This document shows positions 7,540-37,809 of a stretch of 64,000 bases of DNA, one piece after another. The translations under genes and the position numbers were made by a program. The notes beneath the pieces were generated by a model. That model searched no databases. It saw only the letters and a program-made list of their open reading frames with translations, and was not told the DNA's origin. Each line of letters starts with the position of its first letter. Position 1 is the first letter of the stretch. The stretch comes from Candidatus Altiarchaeota archaeon (GTDB lineage: Archaea; Altiarchaeota; Altiarchaeia; IMC4; SCGC-AAA252-I15): contig JBDRLL010000041.1 of NCBI GenBank assembly GCA_043813075.1, forward strand, positions 1-64,000, in the 5' to 3' direction.

Positions 7540-9720
7540 ATGCCTGAGGCAACAGTTGATCCCAGTAAGCGTGGAAGTCAGAGGGTGGATAGGAATCTCG
7601 CTGAACAGGGATTCACGCCAGAGGACATGAATACCCCCATAAAGGACCTTGAGCCTGTTAAAAGGAGGATTGCGCTGCAGCCGTTGGTTAAAGCGCTCTC
7701 AGACACCTCCAGCCGCATACTAAACACTCCAATAGGCGAGCTGAACACTGCATTGAAGCATGGGGATGATTTGACGAGACTGTACAGGTACCTGGAGGGC
7801 GGCACACCAATAATGGTTTCCGCCAACCCGCTGGACGGAGTAACAATCCCAAAACCTCCGCCAGACATACTATTGGCTGCTGAAGCCAAGAAAGCCAACC
7901 TAAGGGCCACGAGGTCGCCTAGGGGAGGGAAATTCATCAGGAAGGAACTTTATGAAATGCTGAATGATGAAAGCTACATAGTTCCGAGGCTTAACGCCGC
8001 ACTGGAGCAGCTCATAGCGAACGGCTACATCTCGAACCCGCTTGAACTTGGGGCGGTAAGATATGTCAGGAAGAACGAGGACGTCAGGACGCCGCCAGAG
8101 ACAGATGTCGGCTGCGTCCTGGTATTCCATCCTGCCACAAGAAAGGGCGCTAGCGCGGAAGACAGGAACCTCAGCCCGAGGAGGCCTGTCTCAGTAGAGT
8201 TCGACGCTGCCGGGAACATAACGAAGATGAAGGAGTACAGTCCCGCGCACGGGAGGAAGCTGTTGACGCCGATAAACGCGTACATAGACATTGTTGATGA
8301 AATGCGTCCTGGTGACGAGGAGACGTACTACTACAGGAGGCTGAAGTTCGAGCCCATAGAGGTTGCTGCAGGAGAGCTGGATGAGAAGGCCAGGAGGATA
8401 GTGGAGTTGGGTGAAAGGGATGGTACTGCCAGGACCTTCGACGGCAGTGAGATACGGTTCTATAACCTCAAGAGGCCCCGGGACGTGGATGAAGTCGGTT
8501 TTGGTGTGGACAGGATAGGTCTTGTCACAGAGATGGGTATTGAGGGTGGGGGGACAGTCTCAGGATTAATGAGAATCGTTGAAACCCCCTGCATACAGTC
8601 AGAGGTTGGTGGAGTGAGGTTTGGTATTCACCTGGAGCCCAATGACTTGGGGGTTCCTTCAAGGGAGACGCTTGAAAGCAGGATACATGAGATAGCGTCG
8701 CAGGAAAACCAGTGGACTTTCTCCGAGCCGAGGATGAGTTATACTGACAGGAAGGGTGAGATAAGAAGGGTTCTGACAGACTTGTCCAACGCTTCACCGC
8801 CCGTGCTGATGGCAGACCCTGCGTCACGTATGGAGTCTCAAGCCAGGTTCCTGGAGGAGATGAGTCCTGCAGTCCCGTACCTGATAGAATTAAAGCACAA
8901 GCTACCTGAATTCGTGAGACAGACCGCTGCCGAAGTGCCTGGGGAATCTCCGGAACTGAACAAGCTGGCGACCGCGTCATACGCGCAACTATTCCAGGCT
9001 GCAGCCAGCATGGTTGGTAAGGGAAGGGCGGTCAACATACTCTGGCCCCTCGAGAGCGTCGACAATTTTTTGGAAGGCTATTTGGATTATCTTGAAGCCA
9101 ACGACCGGGAGTACGCCATGACTGTCGGGCATGTGGTTCAGGACGCAGTCAGGCCGTTGAACCTTCAGAACCAGAGCAGGATAATATCGGAACTCCAACA
9201 GCAGGGTGAGATGACTAGGAGGCATATCAGCTTCGAGGCGGGGAGGATCAGGGAGGAGATAGGCGAGACCGAGGAGGTGATGCTAAGGCACTTGGACAAG
9301 ATTGGTGCGGATGGTGAGAGGCATGTTGGGAGGATAGCTGAGGCCCTGCCTTTGATGCAGGATGTTCTGGAGGAGATAGGCGCGGACACCACTAGAATAA
9401 GGGAGGCTTTACGCAGGAAGGATACCACGCTTGTGTTGGAGGCGGGGATAAGCACGTTCTTCGGCGGAGCCAAGCTGAAGAGGGAGATAAGCCTGGGCAG
9501 CGTTGATGATGCAGTCATAAGGGGTGCGGAAAGAATAAGGGAGGATGTGAGGCATGAGGGCAAGATAAGCCCTGAAGGCGAGTCGAAGCTGGGTAGGGCG
9601 ATGAAGATTATCGGCGGGAGCCTGAGGTCGCTGGCCAGGATGATGAAGAGGAAGGACATACCCAGGGATGATGTCGTACAGCTGAACGAGCTACTTACCT
9701 ACGAGGCTTTAAGTGCTTGA
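7540..9720 (+). CDS. Hypothetical 726-aa protein with C-terminal coiled-coil-like region
   Basis: Long ORF with host-like codon usage; TTTATTAA just upstream; no family recognised. Confidence 0.75.
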   Translation: MPEATVDPSKRGSQRVDRNLAEQGFTPEDMNTPIKDLEPVKRRIALQPLVKALSDTSSRILNTPIGELNTALKHGDDLTRLYRYLEGGTPIMVSANPLDGVTIPKPPPDILLAAEAKKANLRATRSPRGGKFIRKELYEMLNDESYIVPRLNAALEQLIANGYISNPLELGAVRYVRKNEDVRTPPETDVGCVLVFHPATRKGASAEDRNLSPRRPVSVEFDAAGNITKMKEYSPAHGRKLLTPINAYIDIVDEMRPGDEETYYYRRLKFEPIEVAAGELDEKARRIVELGERDGTARTFDGSEIRFYNLKRPRDVDEVGFGVDRIGLVTEMGIEGGGTVSGLMRIVETPCIQSEVGGVRFGIHLEPNDLGVPSRETLESRIHEIASQENQWTFSEPRMSYTDRKGEIRRVLTDLSNASPPVLMADPASRMESQARFLEEMSPAVPYLIELKHKLPEFVRQTAAEVPGESPELNKLATASYAQLFQAAASMVGKGRAVNILWPLESVDNFLEGYLDYLEANDREYAMTVGHVVQDAVRPLNLQNQSRIISELQQQGEMTRRHISFEAGRIREEIGETEEVMLRHLDKIGADGERHVGRIAEALPLMQDVLEEIGADTTRIREALRRKDTTLVLEAGISTFFGGAKLKREISLGSVDDAVIRGAERIREDVRHEGKISPEGESKLGRAMKIIGGSLRSLARMMKRKDIPRDDVVQLNELLTYEALSA

Positions 9721-9761
9721 AGAGGCCCGTATTTAAGCGTCAAACACTATTTCTAAGCAGT

Positions 9762-11558
9762 ATGGGCAAAGCGGACTACGTCTTCGAAGTATCCTATGAA
9801 GTGTGTAACAAGATAGGCGGCATATACACGGTTATAAAATCCAAGGCCGCCCAGATGATCAAGAGATACGACGGCAGATACTACACGGTAGGATACTATA
9901 ATCCGAGTAAAGCCCGCAACGAGTTCGACCTGCTGGAGTCAACGCACCCTGAGATGGATGAGGCGTTCAAGAGGCTGGAGAAGAGGGGTATAAAATGCTA
10001 TTGCGGAGAATGGCTTATACCTGGGAAACCGAGGACCATACTCATAGAAGCGAGCGGCATGAACAGTGAGATAAACGCGATAAAAGCACACTTGTGGGAG
10101 AAGTACAACGTGGACTCGCTCACTTCCGACTCGTGGTTCAATGACCCTGTGATATGGTCGCAGGCAGTCGGCATAGTCCTGGAGGAGTTGATGAAGGTAA
10201 AGCCATTCAGCGAGGGTAAGTGTGTCGCACACTTCCATGAATGGCTTAGCGGGGCTGCACTACTGTATCTTAAGGAGAAGAACGTTAGGATAGGTAGCGT
10301 ATTCACCACCCACGCCACCATGCTGGGCAGGACCATAGCGGCGTCTGGAGCAGACTTATATGACATTGTGGACAAGGGACTTAAGGAAGGCTCTAAGGCA
10401 ACGCCTGACATGGCTAAAAGATACGGCGTCGTCGACAAGCACACTATGGAAGCCGCTTCAGCCAAGGCTACTGACGTTTTCACGACCGTGAGCGAGATAA
10501 CGGGCCGTGAAGCGGAGTTTGTGCTGGGCAGGAGGCCGGAGGTCTTGTTGTTCAACGGGCTTGACATGTCGAAGTATCCGGAGATGGAGGAGTTGTCCAT
10601 ACTAAGGCGGAAGTACCGTCACGAGATGCGGAAGTTCCTGAGGGCGTATTTCACCAGGTACTATGACATCGACATGTACGACATATGCAGCATGTTCCTC
10701 TCTGGGAGATACGAGTTCCACAACAAGGGCATAGACGTTTACATCGACTCGTTGGGCAGGTTGAATGAGAGGATGAGGAAGGATAAGTCTGAGCGGCGTG
10801 CTATCGCATTCATATTCGTGCCGACCGACACGAGGGGGGAGAACATACAGGTGCTGAAGGACATAACCCTTTTTGAGGACATGCACGACAAGGTGGAGGA
10901 GATGCTCCCTGAGATAAAGGACAACATAATGAAGTCAATTGTCATAAAGGGGGAGATACCGAAGAAGATCATAAGCGACGAGACCATGCAGGAGTTGAGG
11001 ACCATACTCACACACTTCCACGAACGCAGGGGTCAGATACCGCCGTTATGCGCTTTTGACTTGAACTATCCTGAGGAGAAAGATGAGATACTGAAGGCGT
11101 GCAGGAGGAACGGGCTTCTGAACCGTAAGGAGGATAAGGTGAAGGTAGTGTTCTATCCCGCATACCTGACGTCAGCAGACCGTATGATATCCATGGAATA
11201 CAATCATGCCACACTCACGTGTGATGTTGGAGTGTTCCCATCGTTCTACGAACCGTGGGGGTACACGCCACTGGAGTGCGCTGCGCAGGCAACCCTCTCG
11301 ATAACGACGGACTTGGCAGGCTTCGGCTTGTTCATCAAGGGTAAGGGGGAGGGTGTGCAAGTCCTTAGGGTTGACGACCGCAGATACGAGGACATAGTAT
11401 CGGATTTGACTGACATGCTGTATGAGATAGTGAAGCTAGAGAAGAAGGACATAACAAAGAGGCGTATAAACGCCCGCGACCTGGCTTTCCTAGCTGACTG
11501 GAGCGCTCTGGCTGAGAACTACGTGAAGGCGCACGACATCGCAGCGGAAAAACTCTAG
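9762..11558 (+). CDS. Glycogen synthase, GT3 family
   Basis: FEVSYEVCNKIGGIYTVIKSK, HFHEWL, FTTHAT.LGR, GRYEF.NKG.D, GVFPSFYEPWGYTPLE; ATG at 9762 preferred over TTG at 9717. Confidence 0.95.
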   Translation: MGKADYVFEVSYEVCNKIGGIYTVIKSKAAQMIKRYDGRYYTVGYYNPSKARNEFDLLESTHPEMDEAFKRLEKRGIKCYCGEWLIPGKPRTILIEASGMNSEINAIKAHLWEKYNVDSLTSDSWFNDPVIWSQAVGIVLEELMKVKPFSEGKCVAHFHEWLSGAALLYLKEKNVRIGSVFTTHATMLGRTIAASGADLYDIVDKGLKEGSKATPDMAKRYGVVDKHTMEAASAKATDVFTTVSEITGREAEFVLGRRPEVLLFNGLDMSKYPEMEELSILRRKYRHEMRKFLRAYFTRYYDIDMYDICSMFLSGRYEFHNKGIDVYIDSLGRLNERMRKDKSERRAIAFIFVPTDTRGENIQVLKDITLFEDMHDKVEEMLPEIKDNIMKSIVIKGEIPKKIISDETMQELRTILTHFHERRGQIPPLCAFDLNYPEEKDEILKACRRNGLLNRKEDKVKVVFYPAYLTSADRMISMEYNHATLTCDVGVFPSFYEPWGYTPLECAAQATLSITTDLAGFGLFIKGKGEGVQVLRVDDRRYEDIVSDLTDMLYEIVKLEKKDITKRRINARDLAFLADWSALAENYVKAHDIAAEKL

Positions 11559-11562
11559 AACG

Positions 11563-11676
11563 TCAGATTATGCCCAATGCTGGGAAGCCGGAACACAGTA
11601 TGCCGCCCATTATGCTGGTTGAGACTGCGGCGCCGACCGTCGAATCGAAGGTCTCCATCTCTGGCTCATGCAGCAT
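11563..11676 (-). CDS. Unannotated 37-aa peptide MLHEPEMETFDSTVGAAVSTSIMGGILCSGFPALGII
   Basis: Read by eye: ATG directly follows the upstream TAA; SD GGGGTGAGG; the ORF fills the gap up to the convergent glycogen synthase stop. Confidence 0.7.
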   Translation of the reverse strand: MLHEPEMETFDSTVGAAVSTSIMGGILCSGFPALGII

Positions 11677-11955
11677 TTACCTCACCCCAGGCAATCCTTC
11701 AGTACCAGGATAATTGGATTTTATGATGCTTGTGACAATCTGCTGGGCCCTGACCTTGTCCTCATCCCCGTAGTCCCTCTCCCCCTCGCCGAATGGTGTT
11801 ATGACGTTGAACTGGAATCGCCCATCCTTAACGACGAGTGCTATATGCCTTTCAAGCGGGGAGCCGAGTATGGACTCCAACTCATCATCCTCTGTGATTG
11901 CAGTCATTATCTTGGAGAGATAATCAAGTCTTATCCCAGTCAACTGTTCTGCCAT
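11677..11955 (-). CDS. Hypothetical 92-aa acidic protein
   Basis: ATG-start ORF with globular composition, 14 nt downstream of the PEBP gene. Confidence 0.75.
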   Translation of the reverse strand: MAEQLTGIRLDYLSKIMTAITEDDELESILGSPLERHIALVVKDGRFQFNVITPFGEGERDYGDEDKVRAQQIVTSIIKSNYPGTEGLPGVR

Positions 11956-11969
11956 GATAATTATACGGA

Positions 11970-12611
11970 CTATTCTTTTTTATAATTACCCATTAGCTCG
12001 GACTCAGCGAGTACATGGCCTCCAATGGCGGTTAGAACATCTTTTTTACGGGATTCCTTCGTCAAACCGAGTTTTGAGTCGAGCGCGTAAAGCCGGAAGT
12101 AGTATCTGTGGGTGCCTGACGGCGGGCAGGGGCCGCCATATGACTGCCTGCGGAAGTCGTTCATGCCCTGGGTGGAGCCTGCAGGCACCGTGTCTTCAGG
12201 TATCACGGTAGTGTCGGCAGGTATGTTCCAGACTATCCAGTGGTCCCAGTTTCCGGAGGGCGCGTCAGGGTCGTCGACGATTATCACGAGTGTCTCGCAT
12301 CCTTCTGGAACTCCGCTAATCTCTAATGGAGGGTTTATGTCGTCCCCCTGGCAGGTGTATTTGCGGGGTATCATACCCCCATCCTCGAATGCACGGCTCT
12401 TTATGTCCATTTTCACAACCTCCTTTCTGATCGTAGTTGAAGTTTCCTTGTGTTTTATGGTTGTCGGCGTGTTCACGCCAAGATTGGTTGATGTGGTCAT
12501 TATTGTTTTGAGTGTTGATGTGGTCTCGAGCGTGGTTGTCTTAGCAGGATCGTTGGGTGATATGCATCCTGCCGTGATGACGATGAGCAATAGTAGGGAG
12601 TAGTAGTTCAC
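11970..12611 (-). CDS. YbhB/YbcL (PEBP, Raf kinase inhibitor-like) protein with lipoprotein signal and Thr-rich linker
   Basis: ITAGC lipobox-like sequence; DDPDAP, HWIVWNIP, YGGPCPPSGTHRY.F. Confidence 0.93.
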   Translation of the reverse strand: MNYYSLLLLIVITAGCISPNDPAKTTTLETTSTLKTIMTTSTNLGVNTPTTIKHKETSTTIRKEVVKMDIKSRAFEDGGMIPRKYTCQGDDINPPLEISGVPEGCETLVIIVDDPDAPSGNWDHWIVWNIPADTTVIPEDTVPAGSTQGMNDFRRQSYGGPCPPSGTHRYYFRLYALDSKLGLTKESRKKDVLTAIGGHVLAESELMGNYKKE

Positions 12612-24944: not shown

Positions 24945-26639
24945 TTACTGGAAGTATGCGTTAACGACATACTGGGATACCATGCGATGGGTGTTGAAGT
25001 AGGAGCCGTTGAATGCTATATTATTCACCATCATCTTTATCCACCTGCCCCTGTTGCCGTAGTACATGGGGATTATCCGGTCCTCCAGCTTCTGGTAAAG
25101 GTCTTCCGCATCCTGGCCGTGGTCCTCCACCTCGTTAAGCTCCTCTGGACTGGGGCCGATACTCCATCCGGTGAAGTCCTCTATATGGCCTTCTATCCAC
25201 CAGCCGTCGAGAACCGAGAAATTGAGGACTCCATTCACTGCGGCCTTCATGCCGGAGGTGCCTGACGCCTCCAGAGGCCTTAGGGGCGTGTTCAACCATA
25301 GGTCTGAGCCGGAGACGAGCAGTTTTGCGGAGTACATGTCGTAGTTGTTCAGGTAGATCATGTTTATCTTGCCGCTCAGCTCCCGCATCTCCTGGATTAT
25401 CTTTTTCAGTAGCTTCTTGCCTTCAGTGTCTTTTGGATGGGCCTTCCCGCCGTAGATGACTTGTATGCCCCCCTCTCTCTCAGCCATGGCCAGCAGGCGG
25501 TCGGTGTCTGTCAAAAGCAGGTCAGGCCTCTTGTATGCGGTAGCCCTCCTGCCGAATCCGATTGTCATCGTATCATAGTCTAAGTCTGTCTTGTAGTGCT
25601 TGTTGACGAAGTCTATCAGGTTCTTCTTTGCGGTAGCGTGCGCGTTCCATACGTCTTGCCCGGGAATGCGGAGTGCGAACCGCATTACGTAGGGGTCTAT
25701 CCTCCATGGGGGTATGTGTTTGTCGAATACTTTCGCCATGGGCTCGGAAACCCATGTAGGCGGGTGTATTCCATTGGTTATGGCCTCGATATTGTATTCA
25801 GGGAACATTTCCTGCGCCACTTCACCATGCATCTTGGCAACACCGTTGATGTATTTCGAGTGGTATAATGCCAGGTGGGTCATGTTGAGTCTCTCATCCT
25901 CGTCCAGTATGTCGTCGTGGTCTAGGCTAGAGTATTCCACGTAGTCCCCGAGAACAGTCTCGACCAACTTCCTCTCGAACCGGTCGTGCCCTGCGGGAAC
26001 TGGAGTGTGTGTCGTGAACACGCAGAGTTCACGTACCCGTTCTATGTCGTTCTCATACCTGTCCATGAGCTCGAGGGATAGCAGAGCTGAATGCCCTTCA
26101 TTCATGTGGTATGCCACCAGGTTGTCGTGGTCCAGGACTTGAAGCATCCTGACGCCGCCAATCCCGAGTATGGCCTCCTGCTTGAACCTGTATCTGCTGT
26201 CTCCGCCATATAGGTGGCTTGTCAGCTTCCTGTCCTCCGGGTCGTTGGTCTTTATGTTAGAGTCCAGGAAGAGGACTGGTATCTTATGCCCTCCAATGCC
26301 ATCTACCTCATGGACCCAAGCCTGAAGGAGCACGTCCCTGCCCTCCAGGTTGACTGTCACCTTCTCGGACAAGAGCCTCATGTGCTGGGAGTGGTCCCAG
26401 TTCACGGGATTCTCCAGCTGGTTGCCATCGCCGTCGATGACCTGATAGAAGTACCCTTTCTCGTTCAGGAGGGATAATGCCACTACGGGAACACCAAGGT
26501 CTGCGAAAGACTTGATGGTGTCGCCAGCCAGTATGCCCAACCCCCCAGCATACACGGGCATCTCTTCAGAAAGGCCTATTTCAAAGCTGAAGTAGGCTAC
26601 TTTCCTCTTCTGCGGAGCGTATTCCTGGTACTTGTTCAT
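24945..26639 (-). CDS. glgP: Alpha-glucan phosphorylase, GT35
   Basis: VAYFS.E.G, YAGGLG.LAGD, HMNEGH, FTTHTPVPAGHD, EASGTSGMKA (PLP Lys). Confidence 0.97.
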   Translation of the reverse strand: MNKYQEYAPQKRKVAYFSFEIGLSEEMPVYAGGLGILAGDTIKSFADLGVPVVALSLLNEKGYFYQVIDGDGNQLENPVNWDHSQHMRLLSEKVTVNLEGRDVLLQAWVHEVDGIGGHKIPVLFLDSNIKTNDPEDRKLTSHLYGGDSRYRFKQEAILGIGGVRMLQVLDHDNLVAYHMNEGHSALLSLELMDRYENDIERVRELCVFTTHTPVPAGHDRFERKLVETVLGDYVEYSSLDHDDILDEDERLNMTHLALYHSKYINGVAKMHGEVAQEMFPEYNIEAITNGIHPPTWVSEPMAKVFDKHIPPWRIDPYVMRFALRIPGQDVWNAHATAKKNLIDFVNKHYKTDLDYDTMTIGFGRRATAYKRPDLLLTDTDRLLAMAEREGGIQVIYGGKAHPKDTEGKKLLKKIIQEMRELSGKINMIYLNNYDMYSAKLLVSGSDLWLNTPLRPLEASGTSGMKAAVNGVLNFSVLDGWWIEGHIEDFTGWSIGPSPEELNEVEDHGQDAEDLYQKLEDRIIPMYYGNRGRWIKMMVNNIAFNGSYFNTHRMVSQYVVNAYFQ

Positions 26640-27939: not shown

Positions 27940-30900
27940 TTATACTTCCTTGACGTACCGCTTGCAGTATTTGTAGACAGGGAGCGTGCAGGGTTGTTCT
28001 TCAGCGTGTATGAATCCTATTGGAGTGTCGTATTCACGCTCCTCGGTCTCGCATTGTATGGTTATGTTCTGCTTAGCATAGTGCTTGGCACTGTAGCTGT
28101 ATAACGGCACTGTTCCAGGCAGGTTGGAGTTGTACACGTACCCCATGAAGCCGTTGATCACATAGTCATTGTCTGACGTGTCATTCGCGTCCAGGCTCAG
28201 GAAAAAGTCGCGTTTGCCCGCGTTATAGTACCTGTAGAGTCTGCTCGTGTCATGGCCTGGAGTCAGCCTGATGTAGCCCACGATCTTGCTTCTGGTATAG
28301 CCTTTCATCGAGTTCGAGACGAATGTTCTTGTATTCAAGCACGCGTCAGTGGATACTGTGTGGAGTCCTGTCTCCTCATTCTGGAAGAGCCAGAGCAGGC
28401 TCGAGTTAGGCTCCCAGTACCTGCTTGAATACCCCAGGTTATTGCCCCAAGAGAGCGTGTAGTTCTCCATGTCTGTCGTTAAATCAACACAGTCTGAAGT
28501 GCACGAGCTCTTACTGTAGCCTATAGTCCCGACACGCACATAATCAGAGTCAGCGGAAGAGTTGAAGAACGACGTGAGCTTGTGATTCTTTTCTCCTGTG
28601 CCGAAATCAGCCATAACCAGCATGTGCAACGGCTGCCTGCCGGACTCGTTGACATCGCCCAAATACCCTAGAGTGGATATCCGGGAATACTTGTTTGAAA
28701 ACTGATTCGCCTCACCGCACTCGTCTATGCTCACCATCCGCTCAACAACACATACAGTGCGGGTACAATCCATCCCAAACAGCCAGCAGAAGAACCTGCC
28801 GATAGCCTCAAACAGGTCAGCGAGGAAGTCTACTATAGCAACAAGGACATCCACTATGAACTCCAAGACAGCCACTATAACGTCAGCAATCAACTCCAGA
28901 ACACTGACTATGAGGTCGCCTATTGCAGCCAGGGCTGCAAGAGGGTCATACCAGAACATCGCAATATCCTGCAGGTCGCTGGCCAGACTGTCTATGAACT
29001 CGTTTAAGCCGGAGACCACTCCGCCAACAAGCTCGTCTGCCGCACCGAACACACCCCCAATCAACGGGACCTTGTCCGTATGACCCCCCCAGCCCAAGAG
29101 CAGGTCTGACAGTCCACTAACTATGGTTGTTACAGTTCCTCCAAACATTTCGACTAGTCCTTCAACAACTTCCCCATCCGCGAAGTCGTCGGCACCGTTG
29201 CTCATCATTGAGAGGGAGGTCGAGAACGCGAGCTCTGTTTTTATGTCATCTAGGTCTCCAGCGGGCAGAGACTGGTTGGAGACCGCTATATACAGCCTTT
29301 TCCACAACAGTATGTCACTGTCTCCGAGAGTCATCTGACCCCAGTACCTGGCCAGCCGGTCCTCTGGTATCTCATACTGGTAGCCCCACGGATTGTATAT
29401 CGCATACACTGTCTCCATCTCACCGGGAACACCAGTAGGGCGTGAGCAATAGTTGACTACCACGATGAAGTGGCCGGCAAAAACGTTTCCAGTCCCGTCG
29501 GTCGTTAACACAAGCATTACCGGAATACCACGGTCTATGAACCGCCGTATCTCACTGAAGTCTCCGTTCTGGTATACCTCAGCGTTCACTCCCTGACTGC
29601 GGGCATACTCAACTAGTATGGTGGGGTCCCCGAACATGCCCCCTTCATTACCCCACGAGTGTTCTGAAGCCGAAGCCCTGCATTCATCGTCCACCGTGAA
29701 GTGGGTGTGGGAGTCGCTTCCAGTAAGGTACCTGAGTATGTATGCGAGACTGGTTGTACCGCACGCGTTCGTAGGCCCCTGACCCGGCAGCCATATGCTC
29801 TCTATCTGCGTGGTCCGCACCACCGTGCTAGTGTGCCCTGCCTCATCGGTTACTGTGTGGGTTATGTTGAACACGCCGTCACTCTGGTACTGGACTTGAA
29901 CGTCTTCTAACGTTAAGTCATCTGACCATGGAAGACTCCAGCGGTAATCAGTGATATTAACGCCGGATACGGGATCGGAATTGTCGAAATGATCTATTGT
30001 CGCCCCCCGATTGTATTCTACAAAGAAATCAGCCCTAGGCAGGTCCGGCTGCGGGGAGCCGACCGTGATGCTGCGGCCCACTGTCGCCGACTCGCCGTCG
30101 TCGTCTGTCACAGTCAACCAGACCATGTGCTCGCCGTTGCTGAGGTCGTGGGAGAAGTTCTGTAGTGTGGTGTTGAATCCGTCGGCCTCAAAGTACCAGA
30201 GCCTTCCAGTGATGTTCCCGTCATAGTCTGATGACGCGTCCGTGAAGTTGAAGTAGCCGTAGAAGTGGTCCTTCTCGAACGTGAAGTCCGCGTGCGGAAT
30301 CCTGTTCTTCGGTGGGGTGCCGTCCCATACTGGGTAGCCGAGTTCTCTGGGCAAATCCCCGTGCTCGTCACGATAGTATAGGCCTCCAGGGCTTTTGGAC
30401 CTGCCTATCTTCATTAGGTCGTTTTCACCGCATGATACTTGAGTCATAGGCTCTTCACCGAGCTCTGATGCAGGCTCTCCGAGATCGGACAGGCCAGGTA
30501 GTTCTACTGTAATCCTCTGTGTTAGGTTGTTGTTACCCTCATTGTATTCATCAACACTGTGGCCACTGTCTACGAATGCGACCACGTCAAACTTGCCTGC
30601 CTTCTGGAATATCAGTGTGTTGTTCAATTGTATCACTGTGCTATTACCCGCTGGTAGTGGTGCGACGGGCACTGTGATGGGCTCGCACGTCCAGTATACA
30701 GTTAGATTCACTGCAGGAGCGTCGTCGAAGCCTATGTTGGCGACCTCTATCCGTAGTGAGACCACGTCGAGAAGCCCGACGTCGTCGGGAGCATAGTTTA
30801 TACGGGTTATGGTCAAATCAGGGAGAAGCATGCACACGCCACCACTACATGCCTCGCCGCCCACACACCCTGTGAACAAGTGGCTTATCCGGGTTCCGTT

Positions 30901-31206
30901 ACAATAGTATTCCTTAACGTGCGTCGTGTTAACACACTCATCATCGACTGTGGTAATGCACGTCACACTATCCTTCCTATGAGAGTCAACCGAACCCAAG
31001 GAGGGGCCGCTGCATGACGTGCATAGTAGTAGTCTCTTGTCGAAGACGTACCTGCCGTATATCGCAGGTTTGTATAGGTTATCACTGTTGAACTGCATGA
31101 CTGAGGGCGTCATCATCGCCTTTGTCTTCGTCATATCAGCCACCTTAGCAGAGGTTAGGGGGGATAGGAGGATCAATGCTAGGAACATGAGCAGCATACG
31201 CTTCAT
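27940..31206 (-). CDS. Secreted multidomain protein: Cys module, CARDB, two PKD, C39-like Cys peptidase, amphipathic helical region, C-terminal aromatic repeats
   Basis: Signal peptide; PDLTI...VDEYNEGNN; F.DASSD.DG.I...W.F; NACGTTSLA...GHFIVV...YNPWG; LYRYYN...GYV....PGTVPLY. Confidence 0.85.
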   Translation of the reverse strand: MKRMLLMFLALILLSPLTSAKVADMTKTKAMMTPSVMQFNSDNLYKPAIYGRYVFDKRLLLCTSCSGPSLGSVDSHRKDSVTCITTVDDECVNTTHVKEYYCNGTRISHLFTGCVGGEACSGGVCMLLPDLTITRINYAPDDVGLLDVVSLRIEVANIGFDDAPAVNLTVYWTCEPITVPVAPLPAGNSTVIQLNNTLIFQKAGKFDVVAFVDSGHSVDEYNEGNNNLTQRITVELPGLSDLGEPASELGEEPMTQVSCGENDLMKIGRSKSPGGLYYRDEHGDLPRELGYPVWDGTPPKNRIPHADFTFEKDHFYGYFNFTDASSDYDGNITGRLWYFEADGFNTTLQNFSHDLSNGEHMVWLTVTDDDGESATVGRSITVGSPQPDLPRADFFVEYNRGATIDHFDNSDPVSGVNITDYRWSLPWSDDLTLEDVQVQYQSDGVFNITHTVTDEAGHTSTVVRTTQIESIWLPGQGPTNACGTTSLAYILRYLTGSDSHTHFTVDDECRASASEHSWGNEGGMFGDPTILVEYARSQGVNAEVYQNGDFSEIRRFIDRGIPVMLVLTTDGTGNVFAGHFIVVVNYCSRPTGVPGEMETVYAIYNPWGYQYEIPEDRLARYWGQMTLGDSDILLWKRLYIAVSNQSLPAGDLDDIKTELAFSTSLSMMSNGADDFADGEVVEGLVEMFGGTVTTIVSGLSDLLLGWGGHTDKVPLIGGVFGAADELVGGVVSGLNEFIDSLASDLQDIAMFWYDPLAALAAIGDLIVSVLELIADVIVAVLEFIVDVLVAIVDFLADLFEAIGRFFCWLFGMDCTRTVCVVERMVSIDECGEANQFSNKYSRISTLGYLGDVNESGRQPLHMLVMADFGTGEKNHKLTSFFNSSADSDYVRVGTIGYSKSSCTSDCVDLTTDMENYTLSWGNNLGYSSRYWEPNSSLLWLFQNEETGLHTVSTDACLNTRTFVSNSMKGYTRSKIVGYIRLTPGHDTSRLYRYYNAGKRDFFLSLDANDTSDNDYVINGFMGYVYNSNLPGTVPLYSYSAKHYAKQNITIQCETEEREYDTPIGFIHAEEQPCTLPVYKYCKRYVKEV

Positions 31207-34631: not shown

Positions 34632-36521
34632 CTATTTACTGACAGGCATCAGATCCTCAAAATAACACCTGACCAACTCGCCCAGACTCCACGCCTGACT
34701 AATGCACCCGCCATGGGCATGCGGCTCATCACCATCAAAGACCTCGCTGACACAACCAAGGCCTGCATCAAAGAGATGCCTGGATAAAAAAGACTCTACA
34801 AGATCTATGCAACGCGACCTGGCGCCAGCACCACGATAACGCAAAACCGCCCTGACATAGGGACCCAGAAGCCAAGGCCAGACGGTGCCGTTGTGATAGG
34901 ATGCGGCCCTCTCATCAAAGCCTCCGACATACCTGCCCCGGTAGCGAGAATCGCCCCTAGCGAGAGTCCGCAGACCATAGGGTGTAAGGAGCTCAGAGTC
35001 CACCAAGTCAAGAATCTTCAATGCCTTGTCTTCAGGCACGACATTATAATCCATTGACAACAAGAGGACCTGGTTAGGCCTAATGCTACCGTCGCCAAGA
35101 CAGTCATCCAGGTAAGAGCCGTTCCAATAGTTTTCCATGAAATTATCCTCAAAACCTGATATGAGGTCGTCTACCCCAGCTTCGTCTCCGACAAGCTTGG
35201 ATAGTGACTTCATGACGCGCAGAGCATTGTACCATAAACCCTGGACTTCGACAGCCTGACTGCGGCTCAACGTGTCCATCCAGGTGCCTGAATCATGGTG
35301 TAATATCCCATCCCTACACCATCCAGAATACTTTTTGACTATGTCTTTCATAGTCCACCAGTATGCCCTCAAGAAACGCCGGGCATCATCATTGCCTGCG
35401 TACTTAGCATAGGAGTTAACCCGGTCTATTAGCCAGAGGGAAGAATCGAAGTCACGGTATTCAGGCACACCCTTGTTGAAGACGGTCGGTATCCTGCCGC
35501 CGTAAACATTCCTGAGGAATCCGCCGAGTATCCTCTCAGCCTCACCAAGCCGCCCGGTCACAAGACACAATCCGGGGAGGCTTATCATAGTATCCCTGCC
35601 CCAGTCGTCAAACCAGTGATAGCCGGCCATAATGCTCTTCCTGCCATCAGAGTCAACAAGGAATGAAGACGTGTTGCATAATAGAGTGTAAAGCCGCAGA
35701 TCCTTGAAACCAGACTTCAATGGAGTCTTCGAGGAGGACAGACCAGTGAACACCCTCCCGCAATCCCTCTCGTCAACGCCAGACGCGACGGTGAACGAGA
35801 ACTCGATTCCACTACCTTCATCAACACTTGTCTTAAAGTATCCGGGGTAAAAGCCGTTGTCAACGTGATCCTCCCCCCTCCGCTCATCCATGAAGTACTT
35901 GAAGTTACGATGCCAGTTGGAGCAGACGACAGACTCCATGAGGTCGTTGTAGACTAGTAGATACGTGTCGGGAGACTGGATGCCAAACGCCCTATCGTTG
36001 AATGACTTGCATTCAAAGATGTCTGAGACGCCGAGCAGTCCGTGAATGCTCCGGCAGGATACGACAGGATTAACCCTGAACTCAACAGGACCGGGAGAAT
36101 TGTTGGAAAGCATGTAGGAGACCTTCAGCGCATTGAAGCCTTGATACATTCCCAACCTCTTCACCAGCGACACGCCCCCAACAGAATACCTCAACTCGAA
36201 CGAGTGGGGGGTGGACTTGACTGAATCGAGGTAATTAATGCCTTCAGCCACCCGGGTGCCGTCAGAGTAATCGTTGACGCCCAGACCATGCCCCACACCC
36301 TCGACAAAAAGCTCTTCATCCAGCTTCAAGAGCATCACCCTCCGGTCGATGACTGGGAATGACGAGACCAGGAGTCCATGATACTTGCGGGTGTTCAGGC
36401 AAGAGATTGATGAAGAGGAATACCCTCCCAGACCATTGGTCAACAGGAATTCCATTGAAGACGGGTCGGCGACTGACTTCAAATCCAGCTCAAAACCATC
36501 ACTAGCTCCCCTTTGCTGCAT
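34632..36521 (-). CDS. Glycogen debranching enzyme (amylo-alpha-1,6-glucosidase, GH133-like)
   Basis: EFLLTNGLGGY, TRKYHGLL, AGYHWF.DWGRDTMISLPG, YHNGTVWPWL, QAWS..E. Confidence 0.95.
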   Translation of the reverse strand: MQQRGASDGFELDLKSVADPSSMEFLLTNGLGGYSSSSISCLNTRKYHGLLVSSFPVIDRRVMLLKLDEELFVEGVGHGLGVNDYSDGTRVAEGINYLDSVKSTPHSFELRYSVGGVSLVKRLGMYQGFNALKVSYMLSNNSPGPVEFRVNPVVSCRSIHGLLGVSDIFECKSFNDRAFGIQSPDTYLLVYNDLMESVVCSNWHRNFKYFMDERRGEDHVDNGFYPGYFKTSVDEGSGIEFSFTVASGVDERDCGRVFTGLSSSKTPLKSGFKDLRLYTLLCNTSSFLVDSDGRKSIMAGYHWFDDWGRDTMISLPGLCLVTGRLGEAERILGGFLRNVYGGRIPTVFNKGVPEYRDFDSSLWLIDRVNSYAKYAGNDDARRFLRAYWWTMKDIVKKYSGWCRDGILHHDSGTWMDTLSRSQAVEVQGLWYNALRVMKSLSKLVGDEAGVDDLISGFEDNFMENYWNGSYLDDCLGDGSIRPNQVLLLSMDYNVVPEDKALKILDLVDSELLTPYGLRTLARGDSRYRGRYVGGFDERAASYHNGTVWPWLLGPYVRAVLRYRGAGARSRCIDLVESFLSRHLFDAGLGCVSEVFDGDEPHAHGGCISQAWSLGELVRCYFEDLMPVSK

Positions 36522-36582
36522 GTAATAGAGTATTTTTATGCGAACGATATAAATAAGATACCTCGCAGATTAGGTGGGTGGT

Positions 36583-37809
36583 ATGACTTCAGTATGTTTT
36601 TACTTTCAAATGCACCAGCCATACCGGCTGAAATGGTTCTGGCCTGGAGACGACTATAAAGGCCCCCTCGAAGACCATTATTTTGACACTGAACTGAACA
36701 AGTGGACTCTCCACAAGGTAGCCGGAAAATGCTATTGGCCTGCCACCCAGAACATACTACACAACATAGAGCTGCTTAAGAACGAGAAGAGGAAGTTCAA
36801 GGTGAGCTACTCGATATCGGGCGCCGTGCTGGAGCAGATGGAGAGGTGGGACAAGGACCTGCTCGAATTGTTCAAGCAGCTGGGGGAGACGGGCTGCTGC
36901 GAATTCCTCTGCGAGACGAGATACCATAGCCTGTCCAGCCTGTTCGACCTGAGGGGGGAGTTCGTAGAACAGGTCAAGGACCACCGTCAGATGATTAAGG
37001 ATTATTTGGGCCAGAAGCCGAGCGTGTTCAGGAACACTGAACTACTGTACCATGACACAATAGCGAAGGAGATTGAGGACCTCAAGTTCAAGGCGATAAT
37101 GACGGAGGGCACTGAGAAGATACTTGAGGGGTGGAAGAGCCCCAATTATATTTACTCCAGGAAGGACGGGAGGATAAAGGTCTTGCTTAGGAACTACAAG
37201 CTGTCCGACGACATAGGATACAGGTTCAGCGCCAGATGGTGGGAGGGATGGCCGCTAACCGCCGAGAAATACGCGGACTGGCTCTCATGGACTCCAGGCG
37301 ACACGATAAACATATTCATGGACTACGAGACGTTCGGAGAGCACCAGTGGGATGATACGGGGATATTCTATTTCCTCGACTCGGTGCCCTGGAAGATCCT
37401 GGAGAAACAGCATTTGGAGTTCAACACGCCCAGCGAAGTGGTGGACAAGTACCATTCCAGGGGGGAGATACAGGTCCCATGGTATGAGACGGTATCATGG
37501 GCTGACATGGAGAGGGATCCGAGCGCATGGCTGGGCAACCACATGCAGCACCTTAATTTCACGGAGTTGAAGCGTCTTGAAGACGAGGTTAAGAAATCAG
37601 GGAACAAGGAGTTCCTTAGGATATGGAGGATGCTGCAGATTTCAGACCACTTCTACTACATGTGCACGAAGGGTATGGGAGACGGTTCTGTGCACGAATA
37701 TTTCAGCCATCACGGCAATCCCTTCGATGCGGGGCTGAACTACCACGCAGTGCTCTCAGACTTCAGGGAGAGGGTGATTAGGGAGAGGTATGAGAAAAGA
37801 AGGAGGTGA
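36583..37809 (+). CDS. GH57 alpha-amylase
   Basis: YFQMHQPYRL, FRNTEL, LSDDIGYRFS, FMDYETFGEHQW, SDHFYYM. Confidence 0.95.
   Translation: MTSVCFYFQMHQPYRLKWFWPGDDYKGPLEDHYFDTELNKWTLHKVAGKCYWPATQNILHNIELLKNEKRKFKVSYSISGAVLEQMERWDKDLLELFKQLGETGCCEFLCETRYHSLSSLFDLRGEFVEQVKDHRQMIKDYLGQKPSVFRNTELLYHDTIAKEIEDLKFKAIMTEGTEKILEGWKSPNYIYSRKDGRIKVLLRNYKLSDDIGYRFSARWWEGWPLTAEKYADWLSWTPGDTINIFMDYETFGEHQWDDTGIFYFLDSVPWKILEKQHLEFNTPSEVVDKYHSRGEIQVPWYETVSWADMERDPSAWLGNHMQHLNFTELKRLEDEVKKSGNKEFLRIWRMLQISDHFYYMCTKGMGDGSVHEYFSHHGNPFDAGLNYHAVLSDFRERVIRERYEKRRR

What the first reader, a model, noticed from the sequence alone, without database searches (positions are those of the whole stretch)
11563..11955. Candidate archaeal peptide system: RiPP-precursor-like 37-mer coupled to a 92-aa orphan
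Seen: a peptide missed by the ORF track, MLHEPEMETFD-STVGAAVSTSIMGGILCSGFPALGII. Its ATG follows the upstream TAA with no gap, and the SD GGGGTGAGG is embedded in the last codons of the 92-aa gene. It is sharply bipartite: an acidic 11-aa leader holding all the charged residues, and an uncharged 26-aa core rich in Gly/Ser/Thr/Ile with one Cys. Established: leader-core organisation is typical of RiPP and bacteriocin precursors. Inference: a precursor or signalling peptide, with the 92-aa protein as leader-binding chaperone or immunity factor. I recognise no radical SAM, YcaO or Lan enzyme in the window, so any maturase would act in trans. The C39-like protease at 27940 is secreted and not clearly linked.
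Basis: partly seen in the sequence, partly recalled or inferred. Interest (0 to 1): 0.78.

Follow-up and report, generated by a model that had tools for sequence, protein, structure and literature searches.

The report
Conserved archaeal microprotein coupled to orphan gene
A 37-residue peptide gene that starts right after the stop of a 92-residue orphan gene is a real, conserved and selected gene pair in a family of Altiarchaeota, but it shows none of the marks of a modified-peptide (RiPP) precursor, and its function is still unknown.

Summary
On the minus strand, a 92-aa ORF (11677-11955) is followed at once by a 37-aa ORF (11563-11676), with an SD-like GGGGTGAGG in the last codons of the first gene.

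The peptide gene is real:
- 10 of 14 readable homologous loci (Altiarchaeota genomes and metagenome contigs) carry a related 22-37-aa ORF.
- Each starts within -1 to +6 nt of the upstream stop.
- Three different stop codons and all three relative frames occur, so it is not a truncated 130-aa protein.
- Changes are mostly synonymous (9 synonymous, 2 non-synonymous in 19 codons for one pair).

What is conserved is the C-terminal tail, hhGGxhGxxhGxh-COOH, a glycine zipper. The acidic N-terminus is conserved in composition only.

The RiPP or bacteriocin reading is not supported. No maturase, transporter or peptidase is linked in any peptide-bearing locus. The supposed core is conserved while the supposed leader varies. 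Cys, Ser and Thr are not conserved.

The 92-aa protein belongs to a very small orphan family with no Pfam, NCBIfam, PDB or fold match. Its basal paralogue is coupled to a DUF167 gene instead of a peptide.

Best reading (about 0.4): a co-translated two-protein module in which the peptide's glycine-zipper helix packs against a partner or itself, and probably tethers to the membrane in most lineages.

The parts
11677..11955 (-). Gene for the 92-aa cytoplasmic orphan protein (stop TAA at 11677-11679). Predicted fold is helix-helix-hairpin-helix, followed by a low-confidence C-terminal extension, NYPGTEGLPGVR.
   Evidence: ORF. Orthologues at 41-72% identity. AF2 model, pLDDT 78. No family hit.
11563..11676 (-). 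Gene for the 37-aa peptide (ATG at 11674-11676, TGA at 11563-11565).
   Evidence: ORF. Homologous ORFs in 10 of 14 loci. Profile hits only downstream of the 92-aa gene. dN well below dS.
11680..11688 (-). Shine-Dalgarno-like GGGGTGAGG inside the last codons (P-G-V-R) of the 92-aa gene. It ends 3 nt (the TAA stop) before the peptide's ATG.
   Evidence: Sequence. The same place holds GGAGGTGA, or that sequence with one mismatch, in most orthologous loci (up20 strings).
11644..11676 (-). Acidic N-terminal head of the peptide (residues 1-11, MLHEPEMETFD). Conserved in composition only.
   Evidence: Alignment A4. Charges.
11566..11616 (-). Gly-rich hydrophobic C-terminal tail (SIMGGILCSGFPALGII). 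This is the window's version of the family motif hhGGxhGxxhGxh-COOH, here with a 3-residue insertion that includes a Pro.
   Evidence: Alignment A4. Tail columns and helical wheel. Hydropathy.
9717..11558 (+). Context only, not part of the module. A convergent eukaryote-type (GT3) glycogen synthase gene whose stop lies 4 nt from the peptide's stop.
   Evidence: PF05693, E = 2e-138. The same convergent neighbour occurs in L024 and L025.

Best explanation
This is a two-gene small-protein module specific to one family of Altiarchaeota. The upstream gene encodes a soluble alpha+beta protein of about 92 aa. It is a derived paralogue of an order-wide orphan family whose basal form is translationally coupled to a DUF167/YggU gene. 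In the derived form, a C-terminal extension (NYPGTExLPEVR) carries in its last codons the ribosome-binding site for a 22-37-aa peptide that starts at the stop codon, so the two proteins are made together. The peptide has a variable acidic head and a conserved C-terminal helix. The helix has a glycine face (GG, G, G at i, i+1, i+4, i+8), a conserved aliphatic face and a variable face. I infer that the glycine and aliphatic faces form a packing interface, either with the 92-aa protein or with copies of the peptide itself (a glycine zipper). In most lineages, this window included, the tail is fully hydrophobic and I infer that it also inserts into or lies on the membrane as a tail anchor. Shown: both genes are real, and they are coupled, exclusively linked and under purifying selection; the helical three-face pattern is in the sequences. 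Inferred: binding, membrane association and any cellular role.
For: Coupling:
- In 10 of 14 readable loci, the peptide start lies -1 to +6 nt from the first base of the upstream stop.
- GGAGGTGA-like sequences lie in the last codons of the upstream gene.

Exclusive linkage:
- All 6 significant peptide-profile hits in 21 family genomes lie directly downstream of a 92-aa orthologue.
- None of the 12 basal-type paralogue loci, which lack the C-terminal extension, has such a peptide.

Selection:
- L002 against L025, last 19 codons: 8 identical, 9 synonymous, 2 non-synonymous. NG86 dN is 0.109. The binomial P for at least 9 of 11 synonymous at p = 0.25 is 1.3e-4.
- dN is below dS in the 6 of 7 pairs where both could be computed. 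In the seventh, dS was not computable.

Tail motif:
- The motif is gapless in 8 peptides, with G3, G4 and G7 invariant and G11 present in 7 of 8.
- On a helical wheel, the glycines span 200-300 degrees. Four of the five conserved aliphatic positions span 100-180 degrees; the fifth, position 1, sits at 0 degrees.
- All Asp and Lys substitutions of the two charged variants (L027, L038) fall on the remaining 340-80 degree face.

Hydropathy:
- Mean Kyte-Doolittle hydropathy of the last 13 residues is 1.84-2.25 in 8 of 12 peptides.

Precedent for partnering with the downstream product:
- The basal paralogue is followed by a DUF167 gene that overlaps or abuts it. Pfam confirms this in L036 and L047, and G000 itself has this pair on contig C34.
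- Four further loci show a downstream ORF of similar sequence, judged by eye.

Likely oligomerisation:
- Tandem two-domain family members exist, which suggests the domain works as a dimer.
Against: - No experiment or model shows binding.
- Two peptides (L027 with four Asp in the tail region, L038 with Lys) cannot be classical transmembrane helices. Hydropathy over 19 residues reaches 1.6 in only 5 of 12, and the window's value is 1.49. Membrane insertion therefore cannot be the universally conserved property.
- Net charges of protein and peptide are not significantly anticorrelated (Spearman -0.24, p = 0.45, n = 12).
- Two extension-type loci (L009, L010) carry only short acidic ORFs without the tail. 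Two others (L006, L007) carry an unrelated ORF in the slot.
- The window's own tail departs from the consensus by an insertion that includes a Pro.
- No expression data are available.
Confidence: 0.4

Rival explanations
1. RiPP or class-II-bacteriocin-like precursor. The acidic N-terminus is a leader. The peptide is cleaved at a Gly-Gly or Gly-Ala site and/or modified by enzymes encoded elsewhere. The 92-aa protein is a leader-binding chaperone or immunity factor.
For: - The peptide is bipartite, with an invariant GG.
- By protein-language-model features, the nearest Atlas clusters to the 37-mer are double-glycine class II bacteriocins (PF10439) and a microcin H47 family. The score is 0.84, which the tool rates as a lead only.
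- The genome encodes a true C39 peptidase domain and many B12-binding radical SAM genes (11 matches in G000).
- In L006/L007, a B12-radical-SAM gene follows the slot.
Against: - None of the 10 peptide-bearing loci has a maturase, peptidase or transporter gene in the flanks read.
- The C39 protein is a 268-aa protein with an N-terminal hydrophobic segment and a Thr/Ser-rich linker. It is not fused to an ABC transporter and lies on another contig.
- No YcaO was found in the 89%-complete genome.
- L006/L007 lack the peptide homologue. The orthologues of their radical SAM gene in G015, G017, G014 and G000 have no 92-aa family gene beside them in the loci fetched.
- The 'leader' is the least conserved part and the 'core' the most conserved.
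- Cleavage after the invariant GG would leave only 9 residues.
- Cys occurs in 3 of 10 peptides.
- There are no Pfam hits to PF10439, PF03047 or PF05402.
Confidence: 0.1
2. Toxin-antitoxin-like pair. The peptide is a membrane-active, pore-forming glycine-zipper toxin, and the co-translated upstream protein neutralises it. This is analogous in layout to GhoS/GhoT or to small hydrophobic toxins with a protein partner.
For: - The gene order is a small soluble protein first and a hydrophobic or amphipathic peptide second, tightly coupled.
- The L038 variant looks like a cationic amphipathic helix.
- One genome (G012) has two peptide-bearing copies plus a third paralogue.
- L009 sits among ParE toxin-antitoxin genes.
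- The neighbourhood varies between genera.
Against: - There is no match to any toxin, antitoxin or defence family in Pfam, NCBIfam or PADLOC.
- The module is confined to one archaeal family. Divergence looks vertical, and synteny with glycogen genes is retained across at least two genera and one metagenome contig.
- It derives from a paralogue that pairs with a non-toxin DUF167 gene.
- One variant has an acidic, non-hydrophobic tail (L027).
Confidence: 0.12
3. Accessory pair of glycogen metabolism, for example a granule- or enzyme-associated adaptor.
For: In 4 of the 14 readable loci the module lies in a glycogen cluster:
- L025: debranching enzyme, then the 92-aa gene and peptide, facing a convergent GT3 glycogen synthase.
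- The window and L024: convergent glycogen synthase.
- L022: debranching enzyme directly upstream, and a synthase about 2 kb downstream.
Against: - The other loci lie beside ScpA/ScpB, FtsZ, a PMT_2 glycosyltransferase, DUF447, Trm1 or toxin-antitoxin genes.
- The four glycogen-linked loci are the closest relatives, so this may be inherited synteny.
- A Tyr in the acidic head, which would recall a glycogenin-type primer, is present in only 7 of 12 peptides and is absent from the window's.
Confidence: 0.07
4. The 37-codon frame is a chance ORF in a 118-nt convergent intergenic spacer.
For: A 37-codon open frame is not rare by chance. No RNA or protein evidence is available.
Against: - It is conserved in position across 10 of 14 loci, with different frames and stop codons.
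- Substitutions are mostly synonymous.
- Profile hits occur only at this position.
- The tail is conserved also in loci with no convergent gene nearby.
Confidence: 0.03

Closest known systems
The basal paralogue of the same orphan family, coupled to a DUF167/YggU (PF02594) gene
   Same: It is homologous over residues 5-80 (E = 1e-4 to 1e-7). It has the same helix-helix-hairpin-helix core. Its stop also overlaps or abuts the start of the next gene.
   Different: It lacks the NYPGTExLPEVR extension, and its downstream partner is a ~95-aa DUF167 protein rather than a 22-37-aa peptide. It is present across the sister family as well (15 of 22 genomes). G000 has both forms.
Class II bacteriocins with a double-glycine leader (Pfam PF10439 Bacteriocin_IIc, PF03047 ComC)
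   Same: Both are short, with an acidic N-terminal part, a GG and a Gly-rich hydrophobic C-terminal part. These clusters are the nearest neighbours by language-model features (0.84).
   Different: There is no Pfam hit, and no C39-ABC exporter or membrane immunity gene in any locus. The peptide is much shorter, with 9 residues after the invariant GG. The N-terminal part is not conserved. The host is archaeal and the neighbour is a cytoplasmic protein.
RiPP precursor plus a PqqD-like recognition element (RRE)
   Same: A small peptide gene lies next to a ~90-aa protein of no catalytic family.
   Different: The order of secondary-structure elements (helix-helix-strand-strand-helix) is not that of the RRE winged helix as I recall it. 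There is no PF05402 hit, no maturase nearby, and the conservation pattern is reversed.
Transmembrane glycine-zipper helices (GxxxGxxxG), as described for channel-forming and oligomerising membrane segments, and the Pfam Gly-zipper families. The literature and family names are recalled; none was read here.
   Same: The G-x3-G-x3-G spacing is present in 7 of the 8 gapless tails, on one helical face. The segment is hydrophobic in most members.
   Different: No Gly-zipper family appears among the Pfam hits. The segment is short, 13-19 residues, and ends at the C-terminus. Two members carry charges on the third face.
Small accessory membrane microproteins encoded next to their partner (KdpF, CydX, AcrZ type), and the type V toxin-antitoxin pair GhoS/GhoT. 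Both are recalled.
   Same: A tiny hydrophobic product is co-transcribed and coupled with a partner gene. For GhoST, a ~100-aa alpha+beta protein precedes a small membrane peptide.
   Different: The partner here is a soluble orphan protein, not a transporter or oxidase. There is no sequence or fold match to GhoS or to any toxin-antitoxin family.

Membership tests
RiPP precursor / biosynthetic cluster | A modifying enzyme gene (radical SAM/SPASM, YcaO, LanB/C/M, ATP-grasp and the like) co-located with the precursor | tested here: not met
   None in the flanks of the 10 peptide-bearing loci, which extend 0.1-4 kb depending on contig length. A B12-radical-SAM gene stands only beside L006/L007, which lack the peptide homologue, and its orthologues elsewhere are not linked.
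RiPP precursor / biosynthetic cluster | A leader (recognition sequence) conserved across family members, with a more variable core | tested here: not met
   In alignment A4, the N-terminal 12-20 columns have no conserved residue beyond Met1, while the C-terminal tail carries the invariant glycines.
RiPP precursor / biosynthetic cluster | Conserved modifiable residues (Cys/Ser/Thr) in the core | tested here: not met
   Cys occurs in 3 of 10 peptides (window, L005, L008). No Ser or Thr column is conserved.
RiPP precursor / biosynthetic cluster | Post-translational modification or leader cleavage of the peptide | not testable with these tools
   This needs intact-mass peptidomics.
PqqD-like RiPP recognition element (for the 92-aa protein) | PF05402 sequence match or a winged-helix RRE fold | tested here: inconclusive
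   No Pfam or NCBIfam hit and no PDB sequence hit. Fold searches gave nothing above Z 5.1 or below Foldseek E 0.6, and no RRE was listed. A missing fold match does not exclude the fold.
Class II double-glycine bacteriocin | Match to PF10439 or PF03047 | tested here: not met
   0 families for the 37-mer at E <= 0.1. There is only a feature-space likeness of 0.84.
Class II double-glycine bacteriocin | A dedicated C39-peptidase ABC exporter | tested here: not met
   None in any locus. The only PF03412 domain in G000 is in a 268-aa non-ABC protein on contig C17. The genome is 89% complete.
Class II double-glycine bacteriocin | A double-glycine cleavage site that ends a conserved leader | tested here: inconclusive
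   GG is invariant, but it lies 9 residues from the C-terminus. A second, weaker G-G/A/S lies about 20 residues from the end in most peptides. Cleavage cannot be tested here.
Glycine-zipper transmembrane helix | GxxxGxxxG on one helical face | tested here: met
   G3, G7 and G11 of the 13-residue tail are present in 7 of 8 gapless peptides, and the glycine columns (G3, G4, G7, G11) span 200-300 degrees. The window's own tail has GG and a small-xxx-small pattern, but with a 3-residue insertion.
Glycine-zipper transmembrane helix | An uncharged hydrophobic span long enough to cross a membrane | tested here: inconclusive
   Mean hydropathy over the last 19 residues reaches 1.6 in 5 of 12 peptides. 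The window's value is 1.49. L027 (0.24) and L038 (0.25) are charged.
Toxin-antitoxin or defence system | Match to a known toxin, antitoxin or defence family | tested here: not met
   Pfam, NCBIfam and PADLOC gave 0 families for both proteins.
Orphan family of the 92-aa protein (unnamed) | Significant sequence homology over the whole domain | tested here: met
   Orthologues at 41-72% identity. The profile search found 47 representatives at E <= 1e-3 and 6 at E <= 1e-10 among 1.84 billion proteins.

The most novel reading that the evidence does not exclude
The pair is a new, Altiarchaeota-specific peptide system. The glycine-zipper peptide would be a membrane-active effector, that is, a leaderless or double-glycine bacteriocin-like or pore-forming peptide. 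The co-translated orphan protein would be its dedicated cytoplasmic holder, chaperone or antidote. It would have no homology to any described bacteriocin, RiPP or toxin-antitoxin family. The hypervariable ORF that replaces the peptide in genus g8 (L006/L007) would then be a diversified effector in the same slot.
Probability: 0.15. Interest if true: 0.7.

Novelty: new variant of a known kind. Interest (0 to 1): 0.45.

Why it matters
Small proteins under 40 aa are often missed in archaeal annotation. Altiarchaeota are uncultivated, so lineage-specific genes are among the few handles on their cell biology. This case gives a clean, testable example: a microprotein with evidence of selection, a defined conserved helix motif, a built-in translational coupling signal that doubles as coding sequence, and a partner from a protein family with no known fold relative. 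If the pair forms a complex or a membrane tether, it would give a first function to an order-wide orphan family, including the form coupled to DUF167. If instead it proves to be a membrane-active peptide with an antidote, it would be a new archaeal conflict system. It also shows that a leader-core appearance in a single sequence is weak evidence for a RiPP.

Tried and rejected
- Co-folding the 92-aa alignment with the peptide alignment (complex prediction) gave 'no answer' (scores 0.18 and 0.01; the mark is 0.32). This is neither for nor against binding.
- Sequencing runs: no RNA holder was listed, only DNA contig runs. I did not lay reads, because contigs cannot show expression.
- Fold searches of the 92-aa model and of a tandem two-domain relative found nothing convincing: Foldseek E >= 0.14, and VIA Z <= 5.1 with generic two-layer alpha+beta hits such as MamB-CTD, 4-OT/MIF and RimP-N. 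The PDB profile search found 0 hits. The ESM Atlas search for the 92-aa protein found nothing above 0.78.
- Ribosomal-stalk-tail mimicry: the tails of some peptides, L027 above all, recalled to me the acidic-hydrophobic C-terminus of stalk proteins. The genome's own aP1 ends in ...EEEAASGLASLFG, so the likeness is one of flavour only. I dropped the idea.
- Glycogenin-like Tyr primer: Tyr is not conserved. Dropped.
- Charge complementarity between protein and peptide is not significant.
I repeated it with the 7 closest rows.
I therefore could not ask whether gene callers have predicted the peptide elsewhere.
- Earlier findings of this scan: nothing was returned by place or by sequence.
- Literature: three full-text searches found no paper on this pair. 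The terms were Altiarchaeota + small proteins (6 papers); glycine zipper + small protein + archaea (8 papers); and archaea + RiPP + precursor peptide + double-glycine (15 papers). I saw the search listings and the starts of abstracts only, and read no paper.
- The read-through translation with TAA=X gave no family hit either.
Full report
**1. The observation**

On the minus strand, the window holds a 92-aa ORF (11677..11955, stop TAA) and, directly after it, a 37-aa ORF (11563..11676) that reads MLHEPEMETFDSTVGAAVSTSIMGGILCSGFPALGII. The ATG at 11674-11676 abuts the TAA. GGGGTGAGG at 11680-11688 lies in the codons for the last four residues (P-G-V-R) of the upstream gene. The peptide's stop lies 4 nt from the stop of a convergent glycogen synthase gene (9717..11558; PF05693, E = 2e-138). 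All charged residues of the peptide are in its first 11 positions.

**2. Host**

The window carries an archaeal SRP RNA. The record titles of four homologous loci name Altiarchaeota or Altiarchaeales. The assembly, G000, is 1.8 Mb in 41 contigs and 89% complete.

**3. The 92-aa protein**

It has no hit in Pfam, NCBIfam or PADLOC, and a profile of it finds nothing among PDB sequences.

Homologues are scarce and confined to close relatives:
- One protein query found matches in 34 of 61 related genomes at E <= 0.01. These fell in the window's own family (15 of 20 genomes), the largest sister family f5 (15 of 22) and two smaller families of the same order (3 of 3). None was found in 12 genomes of two other families of the class.
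- With a profile of the seven closest sequences, 12 of 21 genomes of the family match at E <= 1e-8.
- A profile search of 1.84 billion representative proteins found 47 at E <= 1e-3 and only 6 at E <= 1e-10.
- I scanned 45 of those 47 against Pfam (P0002 and the 54-aa P0021 were left out). None had a family over the shared domain, and 3 had weak zinc-ribbon or Urm1 matches elsewhere in the protein.

The AlphaFold2 model (pLDDT 78) is helix-helix-hairpin-helix with a low-confidence C-terminal tail. Neither this model nor a model of a tandem two-domain relative (pLDDT 76) has a convincing match among solved structures: Foldseek E >= 0.14 and VIA Z <= 5.1.

The family has two forms.
- **Basal form.** It is about 80-90 aa and ends near ...IIKxNTV. 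It occurs across the order and lacks any small downstream peptide. Its stop overlaps or abuts a DUF167/YggU gene. Pfam confirms this in L036 and L047. In four more loci the downstream ORF looks similar by eye.
- **Derived form.** The window's gene belongs here. It adds the extension NYPGTExLPEVR.

G000 has both forms. The basal one is on contig C34, followed by DUF167.

**4. The peptide gene is real**

I could read the sequence downstream of 14 derived-type homologues: L001-L010, L025, L026, L027 and L038. L011 is broken into two frames and was left out. L021-L024 duplicate L003, L002, L004 and L005.

- Ten of the 14 have a related ORF of 22-37 aa: the window, L002, L003, L004, L005, L008, L025, L026, L027 and L038 (alignment A4 holds nine of them).
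- Their starts lie -1 to +6 nt from the first base of the upstream stop.
- The upstream stop is TAA in 2 loci, TGA in 7 and TAG in 1.
- Seven of the ten peptides are in a different frame from the upstream gene. A nonsense mutation or read-through of a 130-aa protein is therefore excluded.
- In most loci, the last codons of the upstream gene spell GGAGGTGA or a one-mismatch variant. The conserved P-E-V-R end thus doubles as the ribosome-binding site. That this sequence is complementary to the 16S rRNA 3' end is recalled, not tested here.
- A profile of the peptides, run on the 21 genomes of the family, gave 6 hits at E <= 5e-8. All lie directly downstream of the 92-aa orthologue. One further hit at E = 0.1 lies inside a 408-aa frame and is noise.
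- Between L002 and L025, the last 19 codons are 8 identical, 9 synonymous and 2 non-synonymous. NG86 dN is 0.109, with dS saturated. The binomial P is 1.3e-4.
- dN is below dS in the 6 of 7 pairs where both could be computed. In the seventh, dS was not computable.

The remaining four loci differ. L009 and L010 carry 22-28-aa acidic ORFs without the hydrophobic tail. L006 and L007 carry an unrelated ORF (see section 8).

**5. What is conserved in the peptide**

The N-terminal part is acidic and often holds an aromatic residue, but it aligns poorly. The C-terminal 13 residues align without gaps in 8 peptides as h-h-G-G-x-h-G-x-x-h-G-x-h, ending at the C-terminus. G3, G4 and G7 are invariant, and G11 is present in 7 of 8.

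On a helical wheel:
- the glycines occupy 200-300 degrees;
- four of the five conserved aliphatic positions occupy 100-180 degrees, and the fifth (position 1) sits at 0 degrees;
- the variable positions occupy 340-80 degrees.

In two lineages the variable face is charged. It is Asp-rich in L027 (MLSEMMGGDFDMSMLGGDMGFDLGGF) and Lys-rich in L038 (MEESGKWRNIIGGKLGKIIGAI). Elsewhere it is hydrophobic.

Mean hydropathy of the last 13 residues is 1.84-2.25 in 8 of 12 peptides. Over 19 residues it reaches 1.6 in 5 of 12, and the window's value is 1.49. The window's own tail keeps the GG but has a 3-residue insertion that includes a Pro.

This pattern fits an alpha-helix that packs through its glycine and aliphatic faces. 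It does not fit a lipid-embedded helix in every lineage.

**6. Neighbours**

No conserved partner gene exists beyond the pair itself.

- Four loci lie in a glycogen cluster. In L025 the order is debranching enzyme, the 92-aa gene and the peptide, facing a convergent glycogen synthase. The window and L024 have the convergent synthase. L022 has the debranching enzyme directly upstream and a synthase about 2 kb downstream.
- Elsewhere the neighbours are ScpA or ScpB (L004, L026, L027), FtsZ (L003), a PMT_2 glycosyltransferase (L038), DUF447 (L008), a C39_2-domain gene and ParE pairs (L009), and Trm1 and a flavoprotein (L010).
- In the window, the gene upstream on the same strand is a PEBP/YbhB protein (11970..12611). 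This pairing is not seen in other loci.

**7. The RiPP or bacteriocin reading**

Against it:
- No maturase, peptidase or exporter gene was found beside any of the 10 peptide-bearing loci.
- No YcaO was found in the 89%-complete genome.
- The only true C39 domain is in a 268-aa protein with an N-terminal hydrophobic segment and a Thr/Ser-rich linker, on another contig, and it is not fused to an ABC transporter.
- The 1088-aa protein at 27940..31206 has CARDB, PKD and C39_2 domains and lies 16 kb away.
- Conservation is the reverse of what I recall for RiPP families: the tail is conserved and the head varies.
- Cys is present in 3 of 10 peptides.

For it:
- The GG is invariant.
- The language-model neighbours of the 37-mer are double-glycine bacteriocin clusters, at a score of 0.84, which the tool rates as a lead only.

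I put this reading at about 0.1.

**8. The g8 variant**

In G008 and G019 (L007, L006), the slot after ...PEVK-TAATG holds a different ORF of about 50-65 aa, and two frames are open there. Between these two genomes, whose flanks are nearly identical, a stretch of about 130 nt is almost unalignable. A B12-binding radical SAM gene follows on the same strand.

Such genes are very numerous in these genomes, with 11 matches in G000. The orthologues of this one in G015, G017, G014 and G000 have no member of the 92-aa family in the loci fetched. I therefore treat the adjacency as local to these two genomes. The hypervariability remains unexplained.

**9. Most likely mechanism**

I commit, at about 0.4, to a co-translated two-protein module. 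The peptide's glycine-zipper helix packs against the 92-aa protein or against itself. In most lineages, this window included, the hydrophobic tail also tethers to the membrane, leaving the acidic head in the cytoplasm.

What is shown and what is inferred:
- Shown: both genes are real, and they are coupled, exclusively linked and under selection. The three-face helix pattern is in the sequences.
- Inferred: binding, localisation and any cellular role.

Precedent: the basal paralogue is coupled in the same way to DUF167, and tandem two-domain members exist, which suggests a dimeric unit.

Rivals:
- toxin-antitoxin-like membrane peptide, 0.12;
- RiPP or bacteriocin, 0.10;
- glycogen accessory pair, 0.07;
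- chance ORF, 0.03.

The remaining probability is for functions not considered here.

**10. Verdict**

This is a new, lineage-restricted microprotein and orphan-protein pair of unknown function. It is of moderate interest and can be tested by co-purification, localisation and peptidomics.

Noticed in passing
L006:1301-1495 (-) and L007:1770-1964 (+): In genus g8, the slot after the 92-aa gene holds an unrelated small ORF. Two near-identical genomes differ by an almost unalignable stretch of about 130 nt between conserved flanks. A B12-binding radical SAM gene follows on the same strand.
   Followed up: partly
G000:C34:4853-5089 (locus L047), and L013, L016, L018, L019, L036: The basal paralogue of the 92-aa family is followed by a DUF167/YggU gene that overlaps or abuts its stop. 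This looks like a second conserved coupled pair, found across the order. Both proteins are of unknown function.
   Followed up: partly
window 7540-9720 (+): A 726-aa protein with no Pfam or NCBIfam family. Its stop overlaps the start of the GT3-type glycogen synthase gene by 4 nt, so it may belong to the glycogen cluster.
   Followed up: no
window 9717-11558, 24945-26639, 34632-36521, 36574-37809: Glycogen genes are spread over the window: a eukaryote-type GT3 glycogen synthase, a phosphorylase, a debranching enzyme and a GH57 enzyme.
   Followed up: no
window 27940-31206 (-), and G000:C17 (locus L046:1453-2259, -): Two C39-type peptidase domains sit in non-transporter proteins. One is a 1088-aa protein with CARDB, PKD, C39_2 and DUF5648 domains. 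The other is a 268-aa protein with an N-terminal hydrophobic segment, a Thr/Ser-rich linker and a true PF03412 domain.
   Followed up: partly
G000, whole genome: B12-binding radical SAM genes are strongly expanded: 11 matches at E <= 1e-30 in G000 and 1-10 in 18 of the 20 other genomes of the family.
   Followed up: no
P0009-P0012, P0019, P0043: Tandem two-domain members of the orphan family (161-188 aa) exist. The AF2 model shows two copies of the helix-helix-hairpin-helix unit joined by a disordered linker.
   Followed up: partly
L005:18-269 (+) / L037, and L049:585-791 (-): Extra paralogues of the family lie within 1.5 kb of the peptide-bearing copy in G012 and head-to-head with the 92-aa family copy in G008 (whose slot holds a different ORF), which suggests local duplication.
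   Followed up: no
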